A stretch of 64,000 bases of DNA, taken from assembly GCA_041649475.1 (NCBI GenBank), contig JBAZNA010000001.1:197022-261021 (forward strand). Direction: 5' to 3'. The notes beneath the pieces were generated by a model. The model was not told where the DNA came from, did not search any database, and was given only the letters and a program-made list of their open reading frames with translations. The stretch is from Patescibacteria group bacterium (GTDB lineage Bacteria; Patescibacteriota; Patescibacteriia; Magasanikbacterales; GWA2-37-8). Position 1 is the first letter of the stretch, and each line of letters begins with the position of its first letter. Below, in pieces: positions 10,150 to 58,578 of the stretch. Made by a program: the position numbers and the translations under genes.

Positions 10150-10497
10150 ATGGGAATGCGCGCGAAGGACTGGGAGGCGGCCCAGGCCGTTTTCTTGAAA
10201 GAGGCCGGTGCCGACCCTGACCCCGACGATTCGTGGACCGTAGTTCGGTCGCCGAGTTTGCAGGAGCTTCTGCTGGCAAAGGAGCAGGAGTTCCCGGTTG
10301 AGCTCGAGCTCTCCGACGGCCGCAAGATGACCGTGTTCGTCGAGGATATCAAGGACCCCGACGCGCACGGCGAAGTGGAGGTGTACGTAATGTACGTCGC
10401 CAACGGCAACCGGCGCCGGCGGTACCTGCACTTCACCCCCGACGTCTACGAGCCCAGGGTCAACGTCTACCCCGAGCCCAAGGAATCCGTGGGCTGA
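10150..10497 (+). CDS. GC-rich orphan protein 1 (115 aa, acidic, no recognised domain)
   Basis: AGGAG lies 7 nt before the ATG. Hand count gives 38/60 G+C in the first 60 nt. Third codon positions in this frame are overwhelmingly G/C. The gene has its own promoter and terminator. Confidence 0.65.
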   Translation: MGMRAKDWEAAQAVFLKEAGADPDPDDSWTVVRSPSLQELLLAKEQEFPVELELSDGRKMTVFVEDIKDPDAHGEVEVYVMYVANGNRRRRYLHFTPDVYEPRVNVYPEPKESVG

Positions 10498-18073: not shown

Positions 18074-18400
18074 TCACAGGACCACTTCTTCGTAGTAGTC
18101 GGCCCGCTCGTGGCTAGCGTAGGGGCTTGATTTGGCATCCTTGAGCGCAGCTGCGGCGAACGGTTCGTCTATGGTGACCTCGGCAACGTTCTCGCACTTG
18201 GCGATCAACAGCTGACAACCATCACAGCCGAATCCGGTCACGGTTGCCAGAACCAGCGCCTCCTTGATCTTCGGTACCCGGCCCTCTTTGCGGATGGCTT
18301 CGGCCACATCGGCCGCGTTTTCTCCACCGCAGTCGGTCCAGAACTTGAAAACAACCTCATCACCCTTGCGCACACTAACGAGTCCGGTTTTTCCGTGCAT
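18074..18400 (-). CDS. GC-rich orphan protein 3 (108 aa; contains a CDGC CxxC motif)
   Basis: AAGGAGG lies 6 nt before the ATG, and the SD starts on the stop codon of the upstream low-GC oxidase gene (cctAAGGAGGggtgatATG). G+C rises abruptly at this junction. Confidence 0.6.
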   Translation of the reverse strand: MHGKTGLVSVRKGDEVVFKFWTDCGGENAADVAEAIRKEGRVPKIKEALVLATVTGFGCDGCQLLIAKCENVAEVTIDEPFAAAALKDAKSSPYASHERADYYEEVVL

Positions 18401-25928: not shown

Positions 25929-26282
25929 TTAGGTGTCAACCGTCTCCACCGGAGGGTTGGGCACTGTTGGCCCCCAGAGAGGGACGAATTCCGTGCTCTG
26001 GAAGTTCTTGCGACACAACTCTTCAAGACCAGGGGTATCGCCATCGTAGATGACCCGGGAGGCCGTAATCACGGCCCGATCCTGCTTGGACCCGAACCCC
26101 ATCTGGGCGGCCAAGTTGTAGGCGTTCCTAGCCGAAGGGGCTTCACCGTTTTTTTGCACTTCCGCGCGAATTGCGTCAGCAAAACGCTTGGTGAGATTGC
26201 CGCCGCGGCCAACCACAACTTTCATCAAAACCACGTCGCCTCGGAAAACGATGACCATTCCCGGAACAGCAGTCGTGGACAT
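25929..26282 (-). CDS. GC-rich orphan protein 4 (117 aa; N-terminal block similar to orphan 3)
   Basis: AAGGAGG lies 7 nt before the ATG. The gene has its own promoter and terminator. It shares 13 of 33 ungapped identities with the 18074..18400 product. Confidence 0.65.
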   Translation of the reverse strand: MSTTAVPGMVIVFRGDVVLMKVVVGRGGNLTKRFADAIRAEVQKNGEAPSARNAYNLAAQMGFGSKQDRAVITASRVIYDGDTPGLEELCRKNFQSTEFVPLWGPTVPNPPVETVDT

Positions 26283-28562: not shown

Positions 28563-28591
28563 ACTATAGCACTAAAGAGGTGTTTTGTCAA
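28563..28591 (-). promoter_or_regulatory. strong promoter TTGACA-N17-TATAGT (extended TGc)
   Basis: rc reads ttgacaaaacacctctttagtgctatagt. This is identical to the rnpB promoter at 26 of 29 positions. Confidence 0.65.
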
Positions 28592-28797
28592 TTGTTTCTG
28601 CCTTTGCCCCAGATTTTCCATTCCCAGACCCCTCTGTTTTCTTTTGGTTCTTCCGGCGAATTTTCACGTCTTTCTTCCTCAATGATAGGCATTTCCTCAT
28701 CATATATTCTTGGCCTCTCTTTTTCTCTCTCTTGCTCTTCGCGTCTCCTTATCTCTTCAATAATTAAATCATCCAGCGGACTAAGTTTTTTAGCCAT
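28588..28797 (-). CDS. small highly charged hypothetical protein (69 aa)
   Basis: E/R/K-rich ORF starting 4 nt after the truB stop. No known motif. Confidence 0.4.
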   Translation of the reverse strand: MAKKLSPLDDLIIEEIRRREEQEREKERPRIYDEEMPIIEEERRENSPEEPKENRGVWEWKIWGKGRNN

Positions 28798-28801
28798 AAA
28801 A

Positions 28802-29440
28802 TTATGTTAAATTTATTGCGTTTTTTAAATAGTTTTCACCAATAGCCGTCCGTTCCAGTTCCTCGCAGTAAGCGCCAATGCCGAGTTTTTCGCCAATATC
28901 ATTGGCCAGGGAACGGATGTAGGTGCCTGTAGAGCATTTTACCTCAATTTTTAGAATTGGCCAAGAGTAGTCAAGCAGGTTGATTTCGTAAATTTCAATT
29001 TCGTTGGGCTGACGTTCAATTGTTTTGCCCTGTCTGGCCAGTTTATACAAACGCTGGCCGTTGATTTTTTTGGCTGAAAACATCGGCGGGGTTTGCAATT
29101 GTTTGCCGATAAAAGATTTTAAAATTGATGAGATGGTTTTTTTATCTGGAATTTTGGTTGGGTCTTTGGTTGGGTTTTGGTATTCGGAAATTTTGCCGGT
29201 CTTGTCATAAGTGTCAGAGGTTGCACCGAGTTTAATGGTGGCAATATATGTTTTCGGCAATTGTTTGAATTCATCCAATTTTTTAGTGCAGTCGCGGCCG
29301 ACGCCGACAATCAAAAGACCGGTCGCGAACGGATCAAGGGTGCCGGCATGACCAACTTTGATTTTTTTGTCGGTCCGGATATGCGCCACTACATCATGAC
29401 TGGTCCAGCCGGCGGGTTTGTTGATAAATAGAAATGGCAT
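28802..29440 (-). CDS. truB: tRNA pseudouridine(55) synthase
   Basis: NKPAGWTSHDVV and GHAGTLDPFATGLL (catalytic Asp motif). Confidence 0.9.
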   Translation of the reverse strand: MPFLFINKPAGWTSHDVVAHIRTDKKIKVGHAGTLDPFATGLLIVGVGRDCTKKLDEFKQLPKTYIATIKLGATSDTYDKTGKISEYQNPTKDPTKIPDKKTISSILKSFIGKQLQTPPMFSAKKINGQRLYKLARQGKTIERQPNEIEIYEINLLDYSWPILKIEVKCSTGTYIRSLANDIGEKLGIGAYCEELERTAIGENYLKNAINLT

Positions 29441-29473
29441 ACTATCCCTGCATTATAAACATAATTTTAAAAT

Positions 29474-29504
29474 AAAAAAAGAGCTTCCCTGGGGAGGGAA
29501 GTTC
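29474..29504 (-). terminator. intrinsic terminator of GC-rich gene 5
   Basis: On the minus strand: gaacttccct-cccc-agggaagctc followed by ttttttt. Confidence 0.75.
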
Positions 29505-29580
29505 AGTGGGGGTTGGCTCCGGTGTGATCGCCTGATGGCGAATTGGAGCACGGTAGGAAAGAGCAGGGCGGGGCGGCTGG

Positions 29581-29922
29581 CTAGCCGGCGGCGGAAGCGG
29601 CGATGGGGGCGATCTTGGGCTGGATGTCGATCACGGGGATCGGCTCGGGCAGACCGTCGAAGCGCTGGCGGAGCCAGTCGATCTCGGGCTCCGAGGCCTC
29701 GCCCATGAAGATCTCGATGTAGAACGTCCCCCTGATGAGGCCCTCGTACTTCAGCTTGAAGCCGGGGATCTCGTCGTCGAAGTCGGCCTTGTGCGGCCTG
29801 TTGACGTACCTGTTGAAGTCGTTGAGCGAGCAGTACCTGACGCTGCCGTCCACGAACTGGATCCGTACGGCCCTTGTCTGCAAGGTCGTGTCCGGGAACG
29901 TCATCAGCTTCTGGATCGGCAT
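29581..29922 (-). CDS. GC-rich orphan protein 5 (113 aa, no recognised domain)
   Basis: AAGGAG lies 6 nt before the ATG at 29922 (MPIQKLMTFPD...). The longer track ORF start has no SD. Confidence 0.6.
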   Translation of the reverse strand: MPIQKLMTFPDTTLQTRAVRIQFVDGSVRYCSLNDFNRYVNRPHKADFDDEIPGFKLKYEGLIRGTFYIEIFMGEASEPEIDWLRQRFDGLPEPIPVIDIQPKIAPIAASAAG

Positions 29923-30037
29923 CTCCCTCTCCTTGGGACTACGAGCTCGTGTGACCATCTTGTTATGCCTCCCTTGTTTCCGTGTTGGGCCCAATGCCCC
30001 TAAACTTGTTGGCCTTGTCCAGGCCGTGATGGGCTAA

Positions 30038-30066
30038 ATGGTATCACAATAATACGATTATGTCAA
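30038..30066 (-). promoter_or_regulatory. candidate promoter of GC-rich gene 5 (TTGACA-N17-TACCAT)
   Basis: It lies back-to-back with the infB promoter and implies a GC-rich 5' UTR of about 108 nt. Confidence 0.45.
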
Positions 30067-30082
30067 GAAGAATGGCCAAAAA

Positions 30083-30111
30083 TTGACTAAATGCCAAGAT
30101 AAAGATATAAT
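30083..30111 (+). promoter_or_regulatory. infB promoter (TTGACT-N17-TATAAT)
   Basis: ttgact aaatgccaagataaaga tataat, 20 nt before the ATG. Confidence 0.55.
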
Positions 30112-30131
30112 ATAGTGTAATTAAATTAGGT

Positions 30132-32156
30132 ATGAATGTCAGTGAATTAGCCAGACAATTACGCGTACATCCGCAGAAACTCCTGCAAATTTTGCCCGAG
30201 TTCGGTTTTGATATTGGTGCGAAAGCAGTGAAGATTGACGACCGTGTAGCCCAACAGATTCAGCGCGATTGGCGAAAAATCAAATATATTATTGATGAAA
30301 GAGAACGCAAGGAGAAAGAAAAGCAGAAGGAACTGGAGAAAGAAGCCAGAAAAAGCACAGGCACTTCTGTGGCCATACCGCAAAAATTGACTGTCCGCGA
30401 ACTGGCTGATGCTTTGCAAATGCCGCCGACAAAACTGATAATGGAACTGATGAAAAATGGCATTCTGGCCACGCAAAATGAAAACATTGATCATGACACA
30501 GCCATGCTTATTGCCCAGGAATTTGGTTTTACCGTGACGGAAAAAACCGAAGACAACCACAAAGAAGACACCCATGTTCAGAATTTGGAAAATATTTTAA
30601 CCAGCGATGCGAGCGGTGAGAACAAAATTGCGCGTCCGCCGGTGGTGGTGGTTATGGGTCATGTTGATCATGGAAAAACAAAATTATTGGACGCGATCAG
30701 AAGCACGAACGTAGTTGATTCCGAGGCCGGAGGCATCACCCAGCATATTGGCGCCTATCAGGTTGTCTGGACCAATCCAAAAACCAAAGAAAAAACTCCG
30801 CTGACATTTATTGACACCCCGGGTCATGAGGCCTTTACGGTCATGCGCAGCCGCGGCGCCAAAGTGGCGGACATTGCCATATTGGTGGTGGCCGCCGATG
30901 ACAGCGTGAAGCCACAAACCATTGAAGCGATAAATATAATGAAGGCGGCCAAACTGTCAATCGTGGTGGCCATTAATAAAATAGATAAAGAAGGCGCTGA
31001 TCCGCAAAAAGTGCGGGTTGATTTGTCTCAACATAATATTATCTCCGAAGAATGGGGCGGCGATGTGCCGATGGTTGAGATTTCCGCCAAGCAGAAATTA
31101 AATATTGATAAATTATTGGATGTTTTACTCTTGGTTGCGGATTTGCATGCCGATGAAATAAAAGCTAACCCGGACAGATCGGCGGCCGGAACCGTGATTG
31201 AGGCCCACGTTGATAAGGGCGAGGGGCCGGTGGCCACAATCTTGGTGCAAACCGGAACTTTAAAAATCAATGATCCGTTGGTGGTAAACGGTGAAATTTA
31301 CGGAAAAGTTAAGGCCATGAGAAATTATAAAGGCGATATTTTGGAAACCGCCGGACCAAGCAACCCGGTTCGTATCCTAGGATTTAAAGTGGCCCCGCAA
31401 GTCGGAGATGTTTTGGATGTCGGCAGTTTTGAAACCGCCACTAACATAAACATAAAAGAAAAAAGATCAAAACAATCCGGAGCCGAACAAGGTTCCGCGT
31501 CCACAGTAGAGGTCACTGCCGAAGGCGAAGAGAAAAAGTTTTTGAATTTGGTGATTAAGGCGGATACTTTGGGGTCGCTTGAAGCCATCATTGGATCACT
31601 GGAAAAAATTAAGAATGACGAAGTGGGCGTGAAGGTAGTGGGGAAGGGTTTGGGCAATATTACCGCCGATGATGTGGCCAAAGCCGAAGCCGCGGGCGGA
31701 ATTATTTGCGGTTTTAATGTCGTGGCTATGCCTAACGCGCAAACCATGATTGCCGACAAAAACATCAGCTTCATGCAATACAAAATTATTTATGATTTGC
31801 TGGATTATATTAAAGAGGAGCTGCAAAAAATGTTAAATCCTGAAAAAATAATAACGGAGCTGGGCGCGGTAAAAATCATAGCTGTTTTTAGAACCGAGAA
31901 AAATTACATGATTGTTGGCGGTCGCGTAACATCCGGCAAACTTCGTAAAGATTGTTTGGTCAAGGTGATACGAAAAGGCGAAGCGGTTGGCGAGGGTAAA
32001 TTATCTCAATTACAAATTGCCAAACAGACGGTAAATGAGGTTGCTGAAGGCAATGAATGCGGAATGCAGTTTGACGGCAAATTACGACTGGAAGCTGGGG
32101 ATGTTTTGGAGGCCTATAAAGAAGAAATCAAAGAGAAAAAATTAATTTTAAATTAA
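30132..32156 (+). CDS. infB: translation initiation factor IF-2
   Basis: G domain GHVDHGKTKLLD, DTPGHEAF and NKIDK, plus the C-terminal IF-2 domains. Confidence 0.95.
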   Translation: MNVSELARQLRVHPQKLLQILPEFGFDIGAKAVKIDDRVAQQIQRDWRKIKYIIDERERKEKEKQKELEKEARKSTGTSVAIPQKLTVRELADALQMPPTKLIMELMKNGILATQNENIDHDTAMLIAQEFGFTVTEKTEDNHKEDTHVQNLENILTSDASGENKIARPPVVVVMGHVDHGKTKLLDAIRSTNVVDSEAGGITQHIGAYQVVWTNPKTKEKTPLTFIDTPGHEAFTVMRSRGAKVADIAILVVAADDSVKPQTIEAINIMKAAKLSIVVAINKIDKEGADPQKVRVDLSQHNIISEEWGGDVPMVEISAKQKLNIDKLLDVLLLVADLHADEIKANPDRSAAGTVIEAHVDKGEGPVATILVQTGTLKINDPLVVNGEIYGKVKAMRNYKGDILETAGPSNPVRILGFKVAPQVGDVLDVGSFETATNINIKEKRSKQSGAEQGSASTVEVTAEGEEKKFLNLVIKADTLGSLEAIIGSLEKIKNDEVGVKVVGKGLGNITADDVAKAEAAGGIICGFNVVAMPNAQTMIADKNISFMQYKIIYDLLDYIKEELQKMLNPEKIITELGAVKIIAVFRTEKNYMIVGGRVTSGKLRKDCLVKVIRKGEAVGEGKLSQLQIAKQTVNEVAEGNECGMQFDGKLRLEAGDVLEAYKEEIKEKKLILN

Positions 32157-41855: not shown

Positions 41856-41884
41856 TTGACCAATTGTCTTTTTTATGCTAAAGT
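41856..41884 (+). promoter_or_regulatory. promoter of GC-rich gene 6 (TTGACC-N17-TAAAGT)
   Basis: ttgacc aattgtcttttttatgc taaagt. The 5' UTR contains the hairpin cctgcc-agagaaa-ggcagg. Confidence 0.55.
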
Positions 41885-41931
41885 ATGTGGTTCCTGCCAG
41901 AGAAAGGCAGGTCAGAAAGGAGGCCTCTCGG

Positions 41932-42312
41932 ATGACACGGGTCATGAGTTTGATGGCTTTCTACGCGACTTATCGTCTCTTAAAGGTCGCGTACCGTGCG
42001 ACCGAGAGACAGCTTAGGCTATTCTTCGTCCCCAAGCCGGGGTGCGAGGGGGCCTACGAGGTGGATGAGCAAATCTTCGCCAAGGTTCGGACGCTCATCG
42101 TCAATTCCAGGTCGTTTCAGACCGAAATCTACCCGCTGAACGCCAGTGACGTGGGGGAAGATTTCCGCCTTGGCGACCAGGATTTCACCGGCTCGGTGAT
42201 GGTCTGGCTGAAGGAAGTAGATCCTTTAGACGCACTGTTTACCGACAGAATCAAGGAGGTTGTGTTCGGAGAGGAGAAAGAGTATCGCTTTCAGTGCGGT
42301 TCCCGCAACTAG
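41932..42312 (+). CDS. GC-rich orphan protein 6 (126 aa, no recognised domain)
   Basis: AAGGAGG lies 8 nt before the ATG at 41932 (MTRVMSLMAFY...). The earlier track start lies inside the promoter. Confidence 0.6.
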   Translation: MTRVMSLMAFYATYRLLKVAYRATERQLRLFFVPKPGCEGAYEVDEQIFAKVRTLIVNSRSFQTEIYPLNASDVGEDFRLGDQDFTGSVMVWLKEVDPLDALFTDRIKEVVFGEEKEYRFQCGSRN

Positions 42313-55838: not shown

Positions 55839-56504
55839 ATGGCGACCGCAAAACAGATTCCGTTTTTGATGGGAAGGTTGGTGGAGCATCAGTTTTACTT
55901 CTGTGCTTTGTCCACCGCAAGCGCCACGTGGGCGAGCCAAAACCCGAAAGACGCCATTGCCTTGTGCGTGGCGGCGATCGAGAATCGCCAAAAGGAGCGT
56001 CAGTCCGACCCGGCGCCTTCGCCACTCCTCACCTTGGTCGGTGCCGTCGTGATCTGGCTGGCCGTGAGGTTCGTTGCCAGTGAACACCTGGTGAAGAATA
56101 CCGAGAAGAACGCGCCGGTGAAGATTTCCTACATCTTCGATAAGGTCACCGTGTGGTTCCAGGGCAAGATCGAGGAGCGGGTCGAGGGCGAGATGGCTCT
56201 GTGCTGCCATACCCTGAACTCCGACTCGGACGATAACCTCATCATCAACCAGCTCGGCGGCGAGACCAAGGCCGAGACCGCCCTTGCCGAGGTCTTTGCC
56301 TGCTTGGAGAAGCAACCCAACGGCGAGGATGGTGCGCTACTCACTAACGGCCACGCGAACATCTTCTATGTTCGCAACACCGAAGGTGTGTTGTGCGTGA
56401 TCCAAGTGATCTGGCGCGGTGACGGTTGGACCTTCTACACCCGTTCGGTCGGTTCTCTGGACACATGTACCGAGGGCCGCCGGGTGTTCTCCCGCGCCGC
56501 ATAG
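55839..56504 (+). CDS. GC-rich orphan protein 7 (221 aa; one hydrophobic segment LLTLVGAVVIWLAVRFVA)
   Basis: AAGGAG lies 7 nt before the ATG. A strong terminator follows the gene. No recognisable domain. Confidence 0.6.
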   Translation: MATAKQIPFLMGRLVEHQFYFCALSTASATWASQNPKDAIALCVAAIENRQKERQSDPAPSPLLTLVGAVVIWLAVRFVASEHLVKNTEKNAPVKISYIFDKVTVWFQGKIEERVEGEMALCCHTLNSDSDDNLIINQLGGETKAETALAEVFACLEKQPNGEDGALLTNGHANIFYVRNTEGVLCVIQVIWRGDGWTFYTRSVGSLDTCTEGRRVFSRAA

Positions 56505-56524
56505 TTTGTTCCTTCCTTCCAAGC

Positions 56525-56594: not shown

Positions 56595-56600
56595 TAACCC

Positions 56601-56994
56601 ATTCATAGCGGATGATCGAGCCGACTTAGTCGGCTAGGAAAGTCCGAACACCCAAGATGGCAGTGGGTAACGCCCACCGCTACGGTGGCAACGCCGTGGT
56701 TGGGAAAGTGGCACAGAGACAATTCTAACCCCGACAAGCTCGGGGTAAAAGGTGAAAAGTGTATGGGGGATTTGGTTCTCGAGACCAAAGCTACTATACT
56801 CGGCTGATAGCAATATCAGTTCGTGCTAAACCCTGCCTGGTGCAAGAGCAGCGTTTCGCGGCGCAAAACCGCGGTTCGAAAAGTTCGCTCGCTAGAACGC
56901 GTTAGCAATAACGCGTCCAGATAAATGATCGTCACCTCGCCCCATTTTTAAACAAAATGGTGCGGAGCACAAAATTCGGCTTATAGCTATGAAT
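56601..56994 (+). ncRNA. rnpB: RNase P RNA (bacterial type A)
   Basis: P1 pairing attcatagc/gctatgaat. P4 strands GGAAAGTCCGAACAC and ACAAAATTCGGCTTAT. Also GGGTAACGCCCAC, GGGAAAGTGGCACAGAGA and AGATAAATGATCG. Confidence 0.9.
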
Positions 56995-57024
56995 AAAAAA
57001 GACGACCCGCAAGGGCCGTCTTTT
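56995..57024. terminator. bidirectional intrinsic terminator
   Basis: aaaaaa gacgaccc-gcaa-gggccgtc tttt, between rnpB (+) and the convergent 57040..58578 gene (-). Confidence 0.75.
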
Positions 57025-57039
57025 AATATATCCGCGGAT

Positions 57040-58578
57040 TTATGATGTTCCCGGCGCCATCGTTGGTTGCTGTTGCATCATCGGCTGTTGTGGTTGTTGT
57101 GGCATGTATTGTTGCATTCCCTGCGGCATTTGTACTTGTTTAAATTGTTGCGGCCCTTGTTCCCAAGGCATTATTTCTCCTTCTTGTCCGGTCAGTTCAT
57201 TAACCTTATTGCCAAAATCCTGTCTTAAATTTTCTAAGTCATCCAGGGCTGATGTAATCGTATCAACATCATAATTTTTACTCGCAATCAAATCTTTTAT
57301 TTCCTGTCCTTTTACTTTTATTTCATCCAGAATTGGTACAAGTTCGGATGTGTCTATCTTCTTTTTCTTTAATTGATTGATTGTTTGTTGCGCTTGATTG
57401 ACACTTTGTTTAAAGGTGGAATTGAAACTGCCCAGGTTACCCATCATCATTATAATCTGGTCATTCTGCATTATGTCATCCATTTGGCCGAAGAAATCAT
57501 TTTCCACGGTATCAAACGCGCCCTGTGAATCATCGGTGGCCATTTTGCTTACCGCGTCCGCTTTAACCGCTTTGAGTTTATTAACCGCCTCTTCAAATGC
57601 GTTGTAAACACTTTGGATGTCTATGCCCTTCTTAACTAATTTATCAGTGATTTGTTTGGCGCGTTTGAGCTCACGGGTAAGCATGGTGAGCTGTTTGTCC
57701 ATCTGTTTTAAGGTTTGCGGCCAGCGAGCCAGCATCTCCAGTGTCTGACGGTCTTGGTTTAAATTTTCCATTGCTTCAGACATTGAATTGAAATCAATAT
57801 CATTCAACTGATCGGCGGTGGTCGCGTTTTTTATACTGTTAATAATATTCCTTAGGTTAAGAATATTTTCTTGGGTGTTGGTCGGAATGGATATTTTTTG
57901 TTTTTGGAATTTGGCCACTTGTTTTTCAAACATATTAAGCTGCGATTCCATGCCTTTGATATTTCGTTTCATGTCCTGCAATCTTTGGTTTGCCTGAAAA
58001 ACATCCTGCCTATATTGGTCTAAGGATTGTGACAGATCCTGCATCTCGCCCATATCAACATTTTGCATTTCTTCCATGGTGCTCACATTGGAAGCGGCCG
58101 CGACCAAATCTTTTAATTTAACCAAATTTTGTTTGATATCATCCGGTACGGTGATTCCGCTTTTCTCCGATTGGGCTATCATCCGGTCGTATTCTTTAAT
58201 GGATCGTTGCAGTTGTTTTATACTATTTTTTATTTGTTTAAGCTGTTGTTCCGGACTTGGACCATAATTCGGTTGTTGCGGCGGCTGTTGTGGGGGTTGT
58301 GGTTGTGGCTGTGGTTGTGGCTGTGGTTCAGGACCCGGCTGTTGCGGGCCAGGGTTGGGCTCCGGAGATGGTTGAGGTGGAGTCGGGGGAGTTGGTTCGG
58401 GGGGAGCCGGAGCAATGACTTGTTGCTCTTCCGCTGAAGTATTGTTGGTGCCTAGCGTGCTTAAAAAGTTTTTTAATATTTGCGGAAGTTCTATATAAAA
58501 AGCTTTGGCTGGCATGGCAAATGAAAAAGTCACGGCCATGGCCACGGTTAGAATAGAAATGTTTATTATTTTTTTCAT
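57040..58578 (-). CDS. secreted coiled-coil protein with Pro/Gln-rich low-complexity regions
   Basis: Signal peptide MKKIINISILTVAMAVTFSFAMPAKA, then PEPTPPTPPQPSPEPNPGPQQPGPEPQPQPQPQPQPPQQPPQQP, a long Q/N/K-rich helical region and a Q/M/P-rich C-terminus. Confidence 0.6.
   Translation of the reverse strand: MKKIINISILTVAMAVTFSFAMPAKAFYIELPQILKNFLSTLGTNNTSAEEQQVIAPAPPEPTPPTPPQPSPEPNPGPQQPGPEPQPQPQPQPQPPQQPPQQPNYGPSPEQQLKQIKNSIKQLQRSIKEYDRMIAQSEKSGITVPDDIKQNLVKLKDLVAAASNVSTMEEMQNVDMGEMQDLSQSLDQYRQDVFQANQRLQDMKRNIKGMESQLNMFEKQVAKFQKQKISIPTNTQENILNLRNIINSIKNATTADQLNDIDFNSMSEAMENLNQDRQTLEMLARWPQTLKQMDKQLTMLTRELKRAKQITDKLVKKGIDIQSVYNAFEEAVNKLKAVKADAVSKMATDDSQGAFDTVENDFFGQMDDIMQNDQIIMMMGNLGSFNSTFKQSVNQAQQTINQLKKKKIDTSELVPILDEIKVKGQEIKDLIASKNYDVDTITSALDDLENLRQDFGNKVNELTGQEGEIMPWEQGPQQFKQVQMPQGMQQYMPQQPQQPMMQQQPTMAPGTS
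58296..58328. repeat. hexanucleotide tandem repeat (TGGTTG/TGGCTG x about 5) encoding (PQ)n
   Basis: gttgtggttgtggctgtggttgtggctgtggtt inside the 57040..58578 CDS. Confidence 0.7.

What the first reader, a model, noticed from the sequence alone, without database searches (positions are those of the whole stretch)
29474..30066. GC-rich cassette 5 with a long GC-rich 5' UTR, divergent from the infB promoter
The best promoter (TTGACA-N17-TACCAT, 30038..30066) lies 17 nt from the oppositely oriented infB promoter. It predicts a GC-rich leader of about 108 nt before AAGGAG-N6-ATG. That leader contains ggcct-ggaca-aggcc and an upstream AGGGAGG. A 75-nt GC-rich 3' UTR then precedes an 11-bp terminator. 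The 113-aa product (MPIQKLMTFPD...EPEIDWLRQRFDGLPEP...) has no recognisable domain. The cassette splits truB from infB, which are often linked in bacteria.
Basis: partly seen in the sequence, partly recalled or inferred. Interest (0 to 1): 0.55.

Follow-up and report, generated by a model that had tools for sequence, protein, structure and literature searches.

The report
GC-rich orphan gene between truB and infB
A small, fast-evolving orphan gene with its own promoter and terminator sits in a highly variable gap between two housekeeping genes of a Magasanikbacteria (CPR) genome; it keeps foreign-looking GC-rich codons over long evolutionary time, and its 5' leader shows no sign of being a regulatory RNA.

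Summary
The sequence features are real: an extended -10 promoter back-to-back with the infB promoter, two SD/ATG pairs, a GC-rich ORF, a C-rich 3'UTR and an intrinsic terminator.

The interpretation of a long structured leader fails. The leader folds no better than shuffles, matches no Rfam family, and diverges at a roughly neutral rate in a sister genome. Homologues place the start at ATG 29958, giving 125 aa and a leader of about 73 nt.

The unit resembles a phage "moron", but it lies in a bacterial chromosome. truB and infB are divergent neighbours 56-200 bp apart in many relatives. The gap is over 300 bp in 27 of 44 metagenome loci, filled with unrelated cassettes.

The protein belongs to a tiny family of seven members. 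All are in this slot and co-directional with truB. No domain or fold could be assigned.

Against the sister genome, cassette dS (0.37) is comparable to infB dS (0.56), so inheritance is vertical. Cassette dN/dS is 0.88, against 0.018 for infB.

GC3 stays at 0.89-0.95 in four of the seven members (0.63-0.76 in the rest), against a host value of about 0.45, even where infB dS is saturated. The GC-richness is therefore maintained, not a fading transfer relic. The cause and the protein's function remain unknown.

The parts
30038..30066 (-). Cassette promoter: -35 TTGACA (30066..30061), 17-nt spacer, TG-extended -10 TACCAT (30043..30038). Predicted TSS near 30031.
   Evidence: 10/12 matches, TG present. 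The same architecture is conserved in the sister contig L082 (TTGACA-17-TATCAT, TG present). The TSS is inferred, not mapped.
29959..30037 (-). 5' leader, about 73 nt from the predicted TSS. Conserved start TTTAGCCCATCACGGCCT (30037..30020). Small hairpin GGCCU-GGACA-AGGCC (30025..30011). SD AGGGAGG (29974..29968).
   Evidence: Fold z-scores are -0.10 and -0.85. The middle part is not conserved in L082. The hairpin is kept in L082 with one G-U pair. L094 has UUAGCCCA followed by a different hairpin.
29581..29958 (-). Protein-coding ORF of 125 aa (NCBI annotates 113 aa from ATG 29922, locus tag WC526_01160). GC1/GC2/GC3 = 0.54/0.40/0.92.
   Evidence: CDS indels against L082 are all multiples of 3, while UTR indels are not. 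Amino-acid motifs are conserved across seven family members. The N-terminal extension is conserved, with synonymous changes.
29923..29934 (-). It probably lies inside the coding region (codons K-E-R-E). An internal or alternative start cannot be excluded.
29502..29580 (-). C-rich 3'UTR (79 nt, 65% GC). It carries the recurring motif CTCTTTCC (29563..29556) and a nested hairpin GCUCC..CGCCAUCAGGCG..GGAGC (29549..29516).
29474..29504 (-). Intrinsic terminator: stem CTTCCCT/AGGGAAG with loop CCCC, extendable to 10 bp with one mismatch, followed by a U-tract.
   Evidence: Conserved in L082 with loop CACC. Terminator plus downstream 59 nt are 95% identical between the window and L082.
29441..29473 (-). 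Short conserved stretch between the terminator and the truB start. It holds a TATAAT box (29457..29452) and is likely the truB proximal promoter.
   Evidence: for sequence conservation. The promoter role is inferred. The scan found no canonical -35 here.
30083..30111 (+). infB promoter TTGACT-N17-TATAAT, back-to-back with the cassette promoter.
   Evidence: 11/12 matches. Conserved in L082 and recognisable in all relatives' spacers.
28802..29440 (-). truB, the flanking housekeeping gene downstream of the cassette.
30132..32156 (+). infB, the flanking housekeeping gene, transcribed divergently.

Best explanation
This is a self-contained accessory transcription unit. It occupies a hypervariable "slot" in the divergent truB|infB intergenic region of a Candidatus Magasanikbacteria (Patescibacteria/CPR) chromosome.

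How it is built (shown by sequence and conservation):
- A host-type sigma-70 promoter with an extended -10 fires away from the infB promoter.
- The transcript has a short, essentially unstructured leader of about 73 nt, with one small hairpin near the 5' end and a strong GGGAGG SD.
- It encodes a 125-aa cytoplasmic protein.
- It carries a C-rich 3'UTR and ends at an intrinsic terminator.
- That terminator insulates truB, which appears to have its own proximal promoter.

What it resembles: its anatomy is that of a phage "moron". It has a promoter, one ORF and a terminator, a deviant base composition, and a position between genes that are adjacent in relatives. It is nevertheless a chromosomal resident between housekeeping genes.

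History (shown): it was inherited vertically at least since the split from a sister species. It belongs to a seven-member family found only in this slot.

Evolution (shown): the protein evolves almost neutrally overall, with dN/dS about 0.9. It keeps its reading frame and a core of about 45 aa ([KE]FG..[IL]PG....Y[EK]G.[IV]R..F....F). Its synonymous sites are held at G/C.

Inferred, low confidence:
- The product is a dispensable, rapidly adapting accessory protein, for example one involved in phage, host or competitor interactions.
- The GC-richness of the whole transcribed segment is kept by selection at the RNA or codon level, or by GC-biased gene conversion in a recombination-prone slot.
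For: Anatomy:
- Promoter, SD and terminator are present and conserved in sister contigs L082/L083.

Slot:
- Eight GTDB relatives have a spacer of 103-144 bp. Five others carry unrelated GC-rich cassettes there, in either orientation.
- Of 44 metagenome loci with both genes, 17 have spacers of 200 bp or less and 27 have spacers over 300 bp.
- Occupants include HicB and Bro-N genes and many orphan ORFs.
- L004 (filled) and L006 (empty) share 98% infB identity. They differ by a unit of about 545 bp holding a whole promoter, ORF and terminator.

Family:
- 5.8 billion clustered proteins yielded only the protein itself. The exhaustive HMMER search and a profile search added P0003, P0004 and P0005.
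- A local HMM added L017c1, L109c and L139c. All members lie in the slot, co-directional with truB.

Coding status:
- CDS indels are multiples of 3, while UTR indels are 10, 1, 5, 1 and 5 nt.
- Codon periodicity is GC1/2/3 = 0.54/0.40/0.92.

Vertical descent and rates:
- Window against L082: infB dS 0.556, dN 0.010. Cassette dS 0.373, dN 0.327.

Maintained GC3:
- GC3 is 0.92, 0.95, 0.91 and 0.89 in four homologues, against infB GC3 of 0.44-0.47.
- This holds although infB dS between the window and L081 is 2.55.
- Third-position differences in the cassette are 22 S<->S against 11 S<->W. In infB they are 5 against 62.
- The highly expressed HU gene has GC3 of 0.37, so host translational selection does not favour G/C endings.

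Not an assembly artefact: the cassette appears in an NCBI MAG, two Logan assemblies, and ENA and GTDB contigs.
Against: - No expression data exist. The TSS, the start codon and termination are all predictions.
- dN/dS of 0.88 is also what a decaying gene would show. Only the intact frame, the 3n indels and the conserved core argue otherwise.
- For deep nodes (window against L081, L017, L109 and L139), vertical descent cannot be told apart from repeated acquisition into the same slot.
- GC3 is lower in L017c1 (0.76), L109c (0.74) and L139c (0.63), so "maintenance" is not uniform across the family.
- No mobilising enzyme, target-site duplication or terminal repeats were found.
Confidence: 0.65

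Rival explanations
1. The long GC-rich leader is a structured cis-regulatory RNA, such as a riboswitch, attenuator or thermosensor, that controls the downstream ORF.
For: - A promoter-to-ATG distance of 73-109 nt is long for this genome.
- A small hairpin (30025..30011) is kept in L082 with a G-U change. L094 has a different hairpin at the same place.
- A hairpin near the 5' end appears in each of the five leaders folded (window, L082, L081, L017, L003).
Against: - Fold z-scores are -0.10 (109 nt), -0.85 (82 nt), +1.23 (L082) and -0.56 (L081). Only L017 reaches -2.98.
- There is no Rfam match even at E up to 10.
- The leader interior is 63% identical to L082's, with 11 gap columns, which fits neutral drift.
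- 36 nt of the proposed leader are probably coding.
- A lone 5-bp hairpin near the 5' end is more simply a stabiliser of the mRNA end, or chance.
Confidence: 0.05
2. The cassette is a recent horizontal acquisition from a high-GC donor, and its GC-richness is a passive, decaying relic of the donor's composition.
For: - GC is 62-63% against 43.5% for the window, and codon usage is wholly unlike the host's. For example AAG 6:0, GAG 9:0 and ATC 12:0.
- The cassette is absent from many relatives.
- Lower GC3 in L139c, L109c and L017c1 could be amelioration.
Against: - An orthologue sits in the same frame in the sister genome, with dS comparable to infB.
- GC3 of 0.92-0.95 in both descendants is higher than decay from any starting value allows over that divergence (my calculation).
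- GC3 is still about 0.9 in L081, where infB dS is saturated.
- GC1 and GC2 (0.54, 0.40) are host-like rather than those of a roughly 70% GC donor. This rests on the Muto-Osawa relation, from general knowledge.
- No homologue exists in any GC-rich organism, phage or plasmid.
Confidence: 0.15
3. The functional entity is the GC-rich DNA or RNA itself, and the ORF is incidental. Candidates are an insulator between divergent housekeeping promoters or a non-coding RNA.
For: - The whole transcribed segment is GC-rich, including the leader (55%) and the 3'UTR (65%), not just the codons.
- dN/dS is about 0.9.
- A sense-strand 3'UTR motif recurs across unrelated cassettes.
- The promoter-to-terminator frame is kept while the payload differs, in L003/L017 and in window/L094.
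Against: - There is strong three-base periodicity, and indels are 3n only within the CDS.
- A conserved amino-acid core is detectable where the DNA is saturated: 39% identity over 61 aa with P0003, and HMM E-values of 1e-40.
- The full-length mRNA folds no better than shuffles (z = -1.37).
- The strong SD is conserved.
Confidence: 0.07
4. It is an assembly or binning chimera, with GC-rich reads from another organism joined into a CPR contig.
For: The composition boundaries are sharp.
Against: - The same junctions appear in independent assemblies: an NCBI MAG with a 963-kb contig, and Logan contigs from two runs.
- Homologues lie in the same slot in ENA, GTDB and JGI contigs.
- Host-type promoter and terminator abut the GC-rich segment.
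Confidence: 0.01

Closest known systems
Phage "morons" (Juhala et al. 2000 and Hendrix et al. 2000, from my own knowledge; definition as restated in PMC4378225)
   Same: A single ORF is flanked by its own promoter and intrinsic terminator. It is inserted between two genes that are adjacent in related genomes. Its nucleotide composition differs from its neighbours'. The acquisition mechanism is unknown, with no recombinase site.
   Different: It sits in a bacterial chromosome between infB and truB, not in a phage or prophage. It has no PHROG, phage-database or viral-contig relatives. It has been inherited vertically over long periods. Its deviant composition is maintained rather than being a mark of recent arrival.
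Hypervariable intergenic islets or hotspots flanked by core genes, where accessory genes are exchanged by homologous recombination in the flanks
   Same: The same pair of core genes flanks different accessory content in different relatives, including toxin-antitoxin (HicB) and Bro-N genes. Empty and filled alleles occur among close relatives.
   Different: The unit is a single small gene with its own signals. The promoter/leader/terminator frame can be conserved while the ORF differs. The occupants are mostly GC3-rich orphans.
Integron gene cassettes
   Same: They are small, single-ORF, often orphan units of deviant composition.
   Different: This unit has its own promoter and terminator. There is no array and no integrase nearby in the window. 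No attC-like site was seen.
icaR-type 3'UTR anti-SD elements (Staphylococcus aureus icaR; Ruiz de los Mozos et al. 2013, from my own knowledge)
   Same: A pyrimidine-rich, anti-SD-like motif (CUCUUUCC) lies in the 3'UTR and could pair with the mRNA's own SD. In the window mRNA the predicted pairing probability is about 0.5.
   Different: The pairing is not predicted in L082, L094 or L017. Duplex energies are no better than shuffles. There is no experimental support.
rbfA, the gene between infB and truB in the canonical nusA-infB-rbfA-truB operon
   Same: The position is immediately upstream of truB and co-directional with it, and the size is about 120 aa.
   Different: There is no RBFA Pfam match. 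The predicted secondary structure is beta-beta-beta-alpha-alpha-alpha, not a type-II KH fold. It is absent from many relatives and evolves fast.

Membership tests
Phage moron | One ORF flanked by its own sigma-70 promoter and factor-independent terminator | tested here: met
Phage moron | Lies between two genes that are adjacent in related genomes | tested here: met
   The spacer is 56-200 bp in 25 relatives' loci.
Phage moron | Nucleotide composition differs from flanking genes | tested here: met
   GC is 0.63 against 0.43-0.45, and GC3 is 0.92 against 0.46-0.47.
Phage moron | Resides in a phage or prophage genome | tested here: not met
   The neighbours are leuS, trx, infB, truB, rny and HU. 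There were no PHROG hits, no phage or plasmid tblastn hits and no viral-contig relatives.
Structured cis-regulatory leader (riboswitch or attenuator) | Match to a described RNA family | tested here: not met
   Rfam at gathering threshold and at E up to 10 gave nothing relevant.
Structured cis-regulatory leader (riboswitch or attenuator) | Fold more stable than composition-matched shuffles | tested here: not met
   z = -0.10 and -0.85 for the window, and +1.23 for L082.
Structured cis-regulatory leader (riboswitch or attenuator) | Sequence or structure conserved in orthologous leaders | tested here: not met
   Only the first 18 nt, a 5-7 bp hairpin and the SD are conserved. The interior is 63% identical with indels. 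Too few sequences exist for a covariation test.
Integron gene cassette | Promoterless ORF with a 3' attC site, in an array next to intI | tested here: inconclusive
   The unit has its own promoter and terminator and is solitary. The only inverted repeats are the terminator and a 13-nt palindrome over the stop codon. No dedicated attC or intI search was run.
RbfA | PF02033 match and type-II KH fold | tested here: not met
Recent HGT relic | Homologues in a compositionally matching donor, and absence from sister lineages | tested here: not met
   No homologues exist outside Magasanikbacteria slots. An orthologue is present in the sister genome with dS comparable to infB.

The most novel reading that the evidence does not exclude
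Some Magasanikbacteria chromosomes may carry a class of moron-like "expression slots". Each would be a conserved promoter/leader/3'UTR/terminator frame whose payload ORFs are swapped or evolve almost freely, while their synonymous sites are actively locked at G/C.

The lock would serve a purpose at the RNA or codon level. One possibility is that these messages survive AU-directed RNases. Another is that they stay translatable when tRNAs for A/U-ending codons are limiting or under attack. The recurring anti-SD-like 3'UTR motif (YTCYTTCY) would be part of the same control system.

This would be a previously undescribed way for a minimal-genome symbiont to host and express a fast-evolving accessory proteome.
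Probability: 0.12. Interest if true: 0.8.

Novelty: new variant of a known kind. Interest (0 to 1): 0.45.

Why it matters
CPR/Patescibacteria genomes are small, yet they are full of unexplained hypothetical proteins. This locus gives a clean, comparable example of where such genes sit and how they behave.

The slot between two universal genes is repeatedly filled with single-gene units that carry their own expression signals. One resident family evolves about 30 times faster than infB at non-synonymous sites. It still keeps a codon usage alien to its host.

If the GC3 lock reflects selection, it points to an unrecognised layer of post-transcriptional or translational control in these organisms. 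If it reflects biased gene conversion, it marks an extreme recombination hotspot.

There is also an annotation consequence. The gene start is probably mis-called (113 aa against 125 aa), and the "long leader" should not be catalogued as a candidate riboregulator.

Tried and rejected
- Riboswitch or structured leader. Rejected on fold z-scores, Rfam and lack of conservation.
- P0002, a 1391-aa repeat protein with E 7e-9, was treated as a repeat-inflated spurious hit.
- Phage, plasmid or viral origin. tblastn against phages and plasmids, and viral-contig scans for this and three other cassette families, were all negative.
- JGI metagenome scan with the cassette protein: no relatives.
- Mobile-element ends. 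No target-site duplication or terminal inverted repeats were found.
- Pairing between the 3'UTR anti-SD-like motif and the SD. Duplex energies are no better than shuffles (z = -0.25 for the window). Pairing probability is about 0.5 in the window but roughly 0-0.13 in L082, L094 and L017.
- Whole-mRNA structure: z = -1.37.
- A divergent rbfA was considered because of the position, and rejected.
- L003 as a degraded family member. tblastn found nothing, and only the promoter and the 3'UTR/terminator align with L017.
- Literature searches for a described equivalent in Patescibacteria found none.

Full report
**Context.** The window has 43.5% GC. It carries leuS, thioredoxin, infB, truB, RNase Y, HU, dnaE, type IV pilins and an RNase P RNA. 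The flagged ORF is identical to NCBI protein WC526_01160 from a "Patescibacteria group bacterium" MAG, on a 963-kb contig. The closest truB and infB relatives are Candidatus Magasanikbacteria MAGs. A 200-nt sliding scan shows several short GC-rich islands in the window. The strongest is at 29451-30000, peaking at 68.5% GC.

**Checking the observation.** The pattern scan finds TTGACA-N17-TACCAT at 30066..30038 on the minus strand. It matches 10 of 12 consensus positions and has TG upstream of the -10. The same scan finds the infB promoter TTGACT-N17-TATAAT at 30083..30111. The region has 6 promoter-like sites against 0.9 expected.
- A terminator with a 7-bp stem, loop CCCC and a U-tract lies at 29501..29484. 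It extends to 10 bp with one mismatch.
- AAGGAG-N6-ATG (29922), AGGGAGG (29974..29968) and the ggcct-ggaca-aggcc hairpin (30025..30011) are all present.
- The described features are therefore real. The small corrections are that the terminator is not 11 bp and the 3'UTR is 79 nt.

**The leader.** As RNA, the 109-nt leader has an MFE of -24.0 kcal/mol against -23.7 ± 3.1 for shuffles, so z = -0.10. The 82-nt version gives z = -0.85. Rfam finds nothing in the region even at E up to 10.
- Two Logan contigs (L082, L083) come from a sister species whose infB N-terminus is 97.7% identical. In these, the promoter, the first 18 transcribed nt, the SD and the terminator are conserved.
- The interior of the leader is only 63% identical to the sister's, with a 10-nt and a 1-nt indel. 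That is about the neutral expectation, because infB pS is 0.39.
- The small hairpin survives with a G-U pair.
- Leaders of more distant homologues (L081, L017, L003) and of L094 also carry a hairpin near the 5' end, but with different sequence. Their z-scores are unremarkable apart from L017 at -2.98.
- I conclude there is no riboswitch-like element. At most there is a generic 5' stabilising hairpin.

**The start codon.** The ORF continues upstream to an in-frame ATG at 29958, preceded by GGGAGG. In L082 the gene caller used that start (P0005, MATRIRSPKEREMPIKK...).
- The 12-codon extension differs from the window's at five nucleotides. Three of them are synonymous (CGA/CGG, CGT/CGC, AGG/AGA), and there are no indels.
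- L081c1, L109c, L139c and L017c1 begin at equivalent positions behind strong SDs.
- The product is therefore probably 125 aa and the leader about 73 nt.

**Is it a gene?** Yes.
- GC1/GC2/GC3 is 0.54/0.40/0.92.
- All four CDS indels against L082 are multiples of three, while UTR indels are 10, 1, 5, 1 and 5 nt.
- Amino-acid motifs persist where the DNA is saturated. Identity with P0003 is 39% over 61 aa.

**Relatives of the protein.** The word-indexed search of 5.8 billion clusters returned only the protein itself.
- The exhaustive HMMER search of 1.84 billion representatives added P0003 (E 6e-4) and a repeat-protein hit (P0002) that I treated as spurious.
- A profile search added P0004 and P0005.
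- P0003 lies in a Hainich groundwater contig (L081), in exactly the same place between infB and truB. A paralogue (P0004) follows it.
- A local HMM then found further members in L017, L109 and L139.
- All seven members sit in the truB|infB spacer and point the same way as truB.
- Nothing was found in phages, plasmids, viral contigs or JGI metagenomes when the protein was used as query.
- No domain or fold could be assigned.

**The slot.** In this lineage truB and infB are divergent neighbours.
- Eight GTDB relatives have a spacer of 103-144 bp and 25-35% GC that holds just the two promoters. Five others have 343-1099 bp with GC-rich inserts.
- Among 44 metagenome loci with both genes, 17 spacers are 200 bp or less and 27 exceed 300 bp, up to 3.1 kb.
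- Occupants are mostly orphan ORFs with raised GC3, in either orientation. They also include a HicB antitoxin and Bro-N proteins with host-like GC3.
- L004 and L006 share 98% infB identity (dS 0.54), yet L004 carries an extra unit of about 545 bp. That unit comprises a terminator, a 76-aa GC-rich ORF, a leader and a TTGACA-N17-TATAGT promoter, between AAGTCAAT and CCCCATTGCCC.
- L003 and L017 (94% infB identity) share the cassette promoter and the 3'UTR/terminator, but their payloads are unrelated.
- L094 shares with the window the transcript start UUAGCCCA, a hairpin and the GGGAGG SD. It encodes an unrelated 150-aa protein with GC3 of 0.88.
- The anatomy matches the phage "moron" definition, except that the setting is a chromosome between housekeeping genes.

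**Evolutionary behaviour.**
- Window against L082: infB dS 0.556, dN 0.010, ratio 0.018. Cassette dS 0.373, dN 0.327, ratio 0.88.
- Synonymous divergence of the same order argues for co-inheritance with the flanks, not separate acquisition.
- GC3 is 0.92 and 0.95 in these two, and 0.91 and 0.89 in the L081 paralogues. infB GC3 is 0.44-0.47, and infB dS between the window and L081 is 2.55.
- Of 33 third-position differences in the cassette, 22 are G<->C and 11 are S<->W. In infB the counts are 5 and 62.
- Codon choice is exclusive: AAG 6:0, GAG 9:0, CAG 5:0, ATC 12:0, TTC 8:0, GAC 9:0. The host prefers the A/T-ending synonyms, and the HU gene has GC3 of 0.37.
- GC1 and GC2 are host-like. A simple decay model from any starting GC3 predicts about 0.8 after the window-L082 divergence (my inference).
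- The GC-richness is therefore maintained. Because the UTRs are also GC-rich (55% and 65%), the force acts on the whole transcribed segment.
- I cannot tell selection from biased gene conversion. Members L017c1, L109c and L139c have lower GC3 (0.63-0.76), so the effect is not uniform.

**Extra feature in the 3'UTR.** The sense-strand motif YTCYTTCY lies within 70 nt of the stop codon in 9 of 20 GC-rich cassettes examined. In the window it is CTCTTTCC at 29563..29556.
- Five of the nine are family members. Four have unrelated ORFs, and one of those is at another locus in the window.
- Shuffles give 0.5 on average, and none of 2000 reached 9. The motif is absent from the antisense strand of the same UTRs and from 7.5 kb of cassette CDS. 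It is not enriched in the window as a whole.
- It resembles the 16S anti-SD tail.
- Pairing with the mRNA's own SD has a predicted probability of about 0.5 in the window, but not in L082, L094 or L017. Duplex energies do not beat shuffles.
- Its role is unexplained.

**Verdict.**
- What is there is a moron-like, self-contained accessory gene in a hypervariable chromosomal slot. It encodes a member of a new, tiny, fast-evolving protein family.
- Its notable property is that GC-rich synonymous sites are actively kept.
- Function is unknown. My working inference is a dispensable, rapidly adapting accessory protein (low confidence).

Noticed in passing
window 10150-10497 (+), 18074-18400 (-), 25929-26282 (-), 41875-42312 (+), 55839-56504 (+): Five more GC-rich ORFs of 108-221 aa (GC3 0.67-0.85) have no Pfam, PHROG, NCBIfam or PADLOC match. 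Each sits between host genes. At least three have their own TTGACA promoter, and most have an AAGGAG-type SD and a terminator. That makes six such units in 64 kb.
   Followed up: partly
window 18074-18400 and 25929-26282; L084 5001-5321; L087 981-1337: The 108-aa and 117-aa cassette proteins are paralogues (38% identity over 58 aa). Their family is also nearly orphan, with three other clusters among 5.8 billion. One member (P0010) sits at a different locus in a relative. For the 117-aa gene against the sister species, dN/dS is 0.35 and dS is 0.41.
   Followed up: partly
window 29556-29563 (-) and 56509-56520 (+); L082, L081, L017, L139, L094, L095, L145 3'UTRs: A recurring sense-strand 3'UTR motif, YTCYTTCY, resembles the anti-SD. 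It occurs in 9 of 20 GC-rich cassettes, against 0.5 expected from shuffles. Its role is unknown, and SD pairing is not consistently predicted.
   Followed up: partly
L003 5539-6000 vs L017 4902-6000; window 29441-30131 vs L094 2598-3500: The same promoter/leader and 3'UTR/terminator frame carries unrelated ORF payloads in close relatives. This suggests payload replacement within a conserved expression frame.
   Followed up: partly
L004 1354-2000 vs L006 5894-6000: This is an empty/filled pair at 98% infB identity. A complete unit of about 545 bp (terminator, 76-aa ORF, promoter) is the indel. Both junction regions contain GTCAAT, which is the -35 box of two promoters.
   Followed up: partly
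L105 453-746 and 2864-3484; L144 2436-3290: In other relatives the truB|infB slot holds a HicB-like antitoxin and Bro-N domain proteins with host-like GC3. The slot therefore also receives classic mobile or accessory genes.
   Followed up: partly
L082 about 1462-1529 (and the end of L083): In the sister species the sequence after the conserved ...TTTATAATGCAGGGATAG departs from the truB start, and the contig ends there. There may be a further insertion or a rearrangement.
   Followed up: no
window 56600-56999 (+): A bacterial RNase P RNA (class A, 175 bits) with its own TTGACA-N17-TATAGT promoter lies directly after the terminator of the 221-aa GC-rich cassette.
   Followed up: no
window 28588-28797 (-): A 69-aa, highly charged ORF (MAKKLSPLDDLIIEEIRRREEQEREKERPR...) lies between truB and rny. 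It was not examined.
   Followed up: no
window 58129-58450, inside the 512-aa ORF at 57040-58578 (-): This local GC peak is caused by a proline/glutamine-rich repeat (PQPQPQ...) in a secreted-looking protein. It is not a cassette.
   Followed up: no
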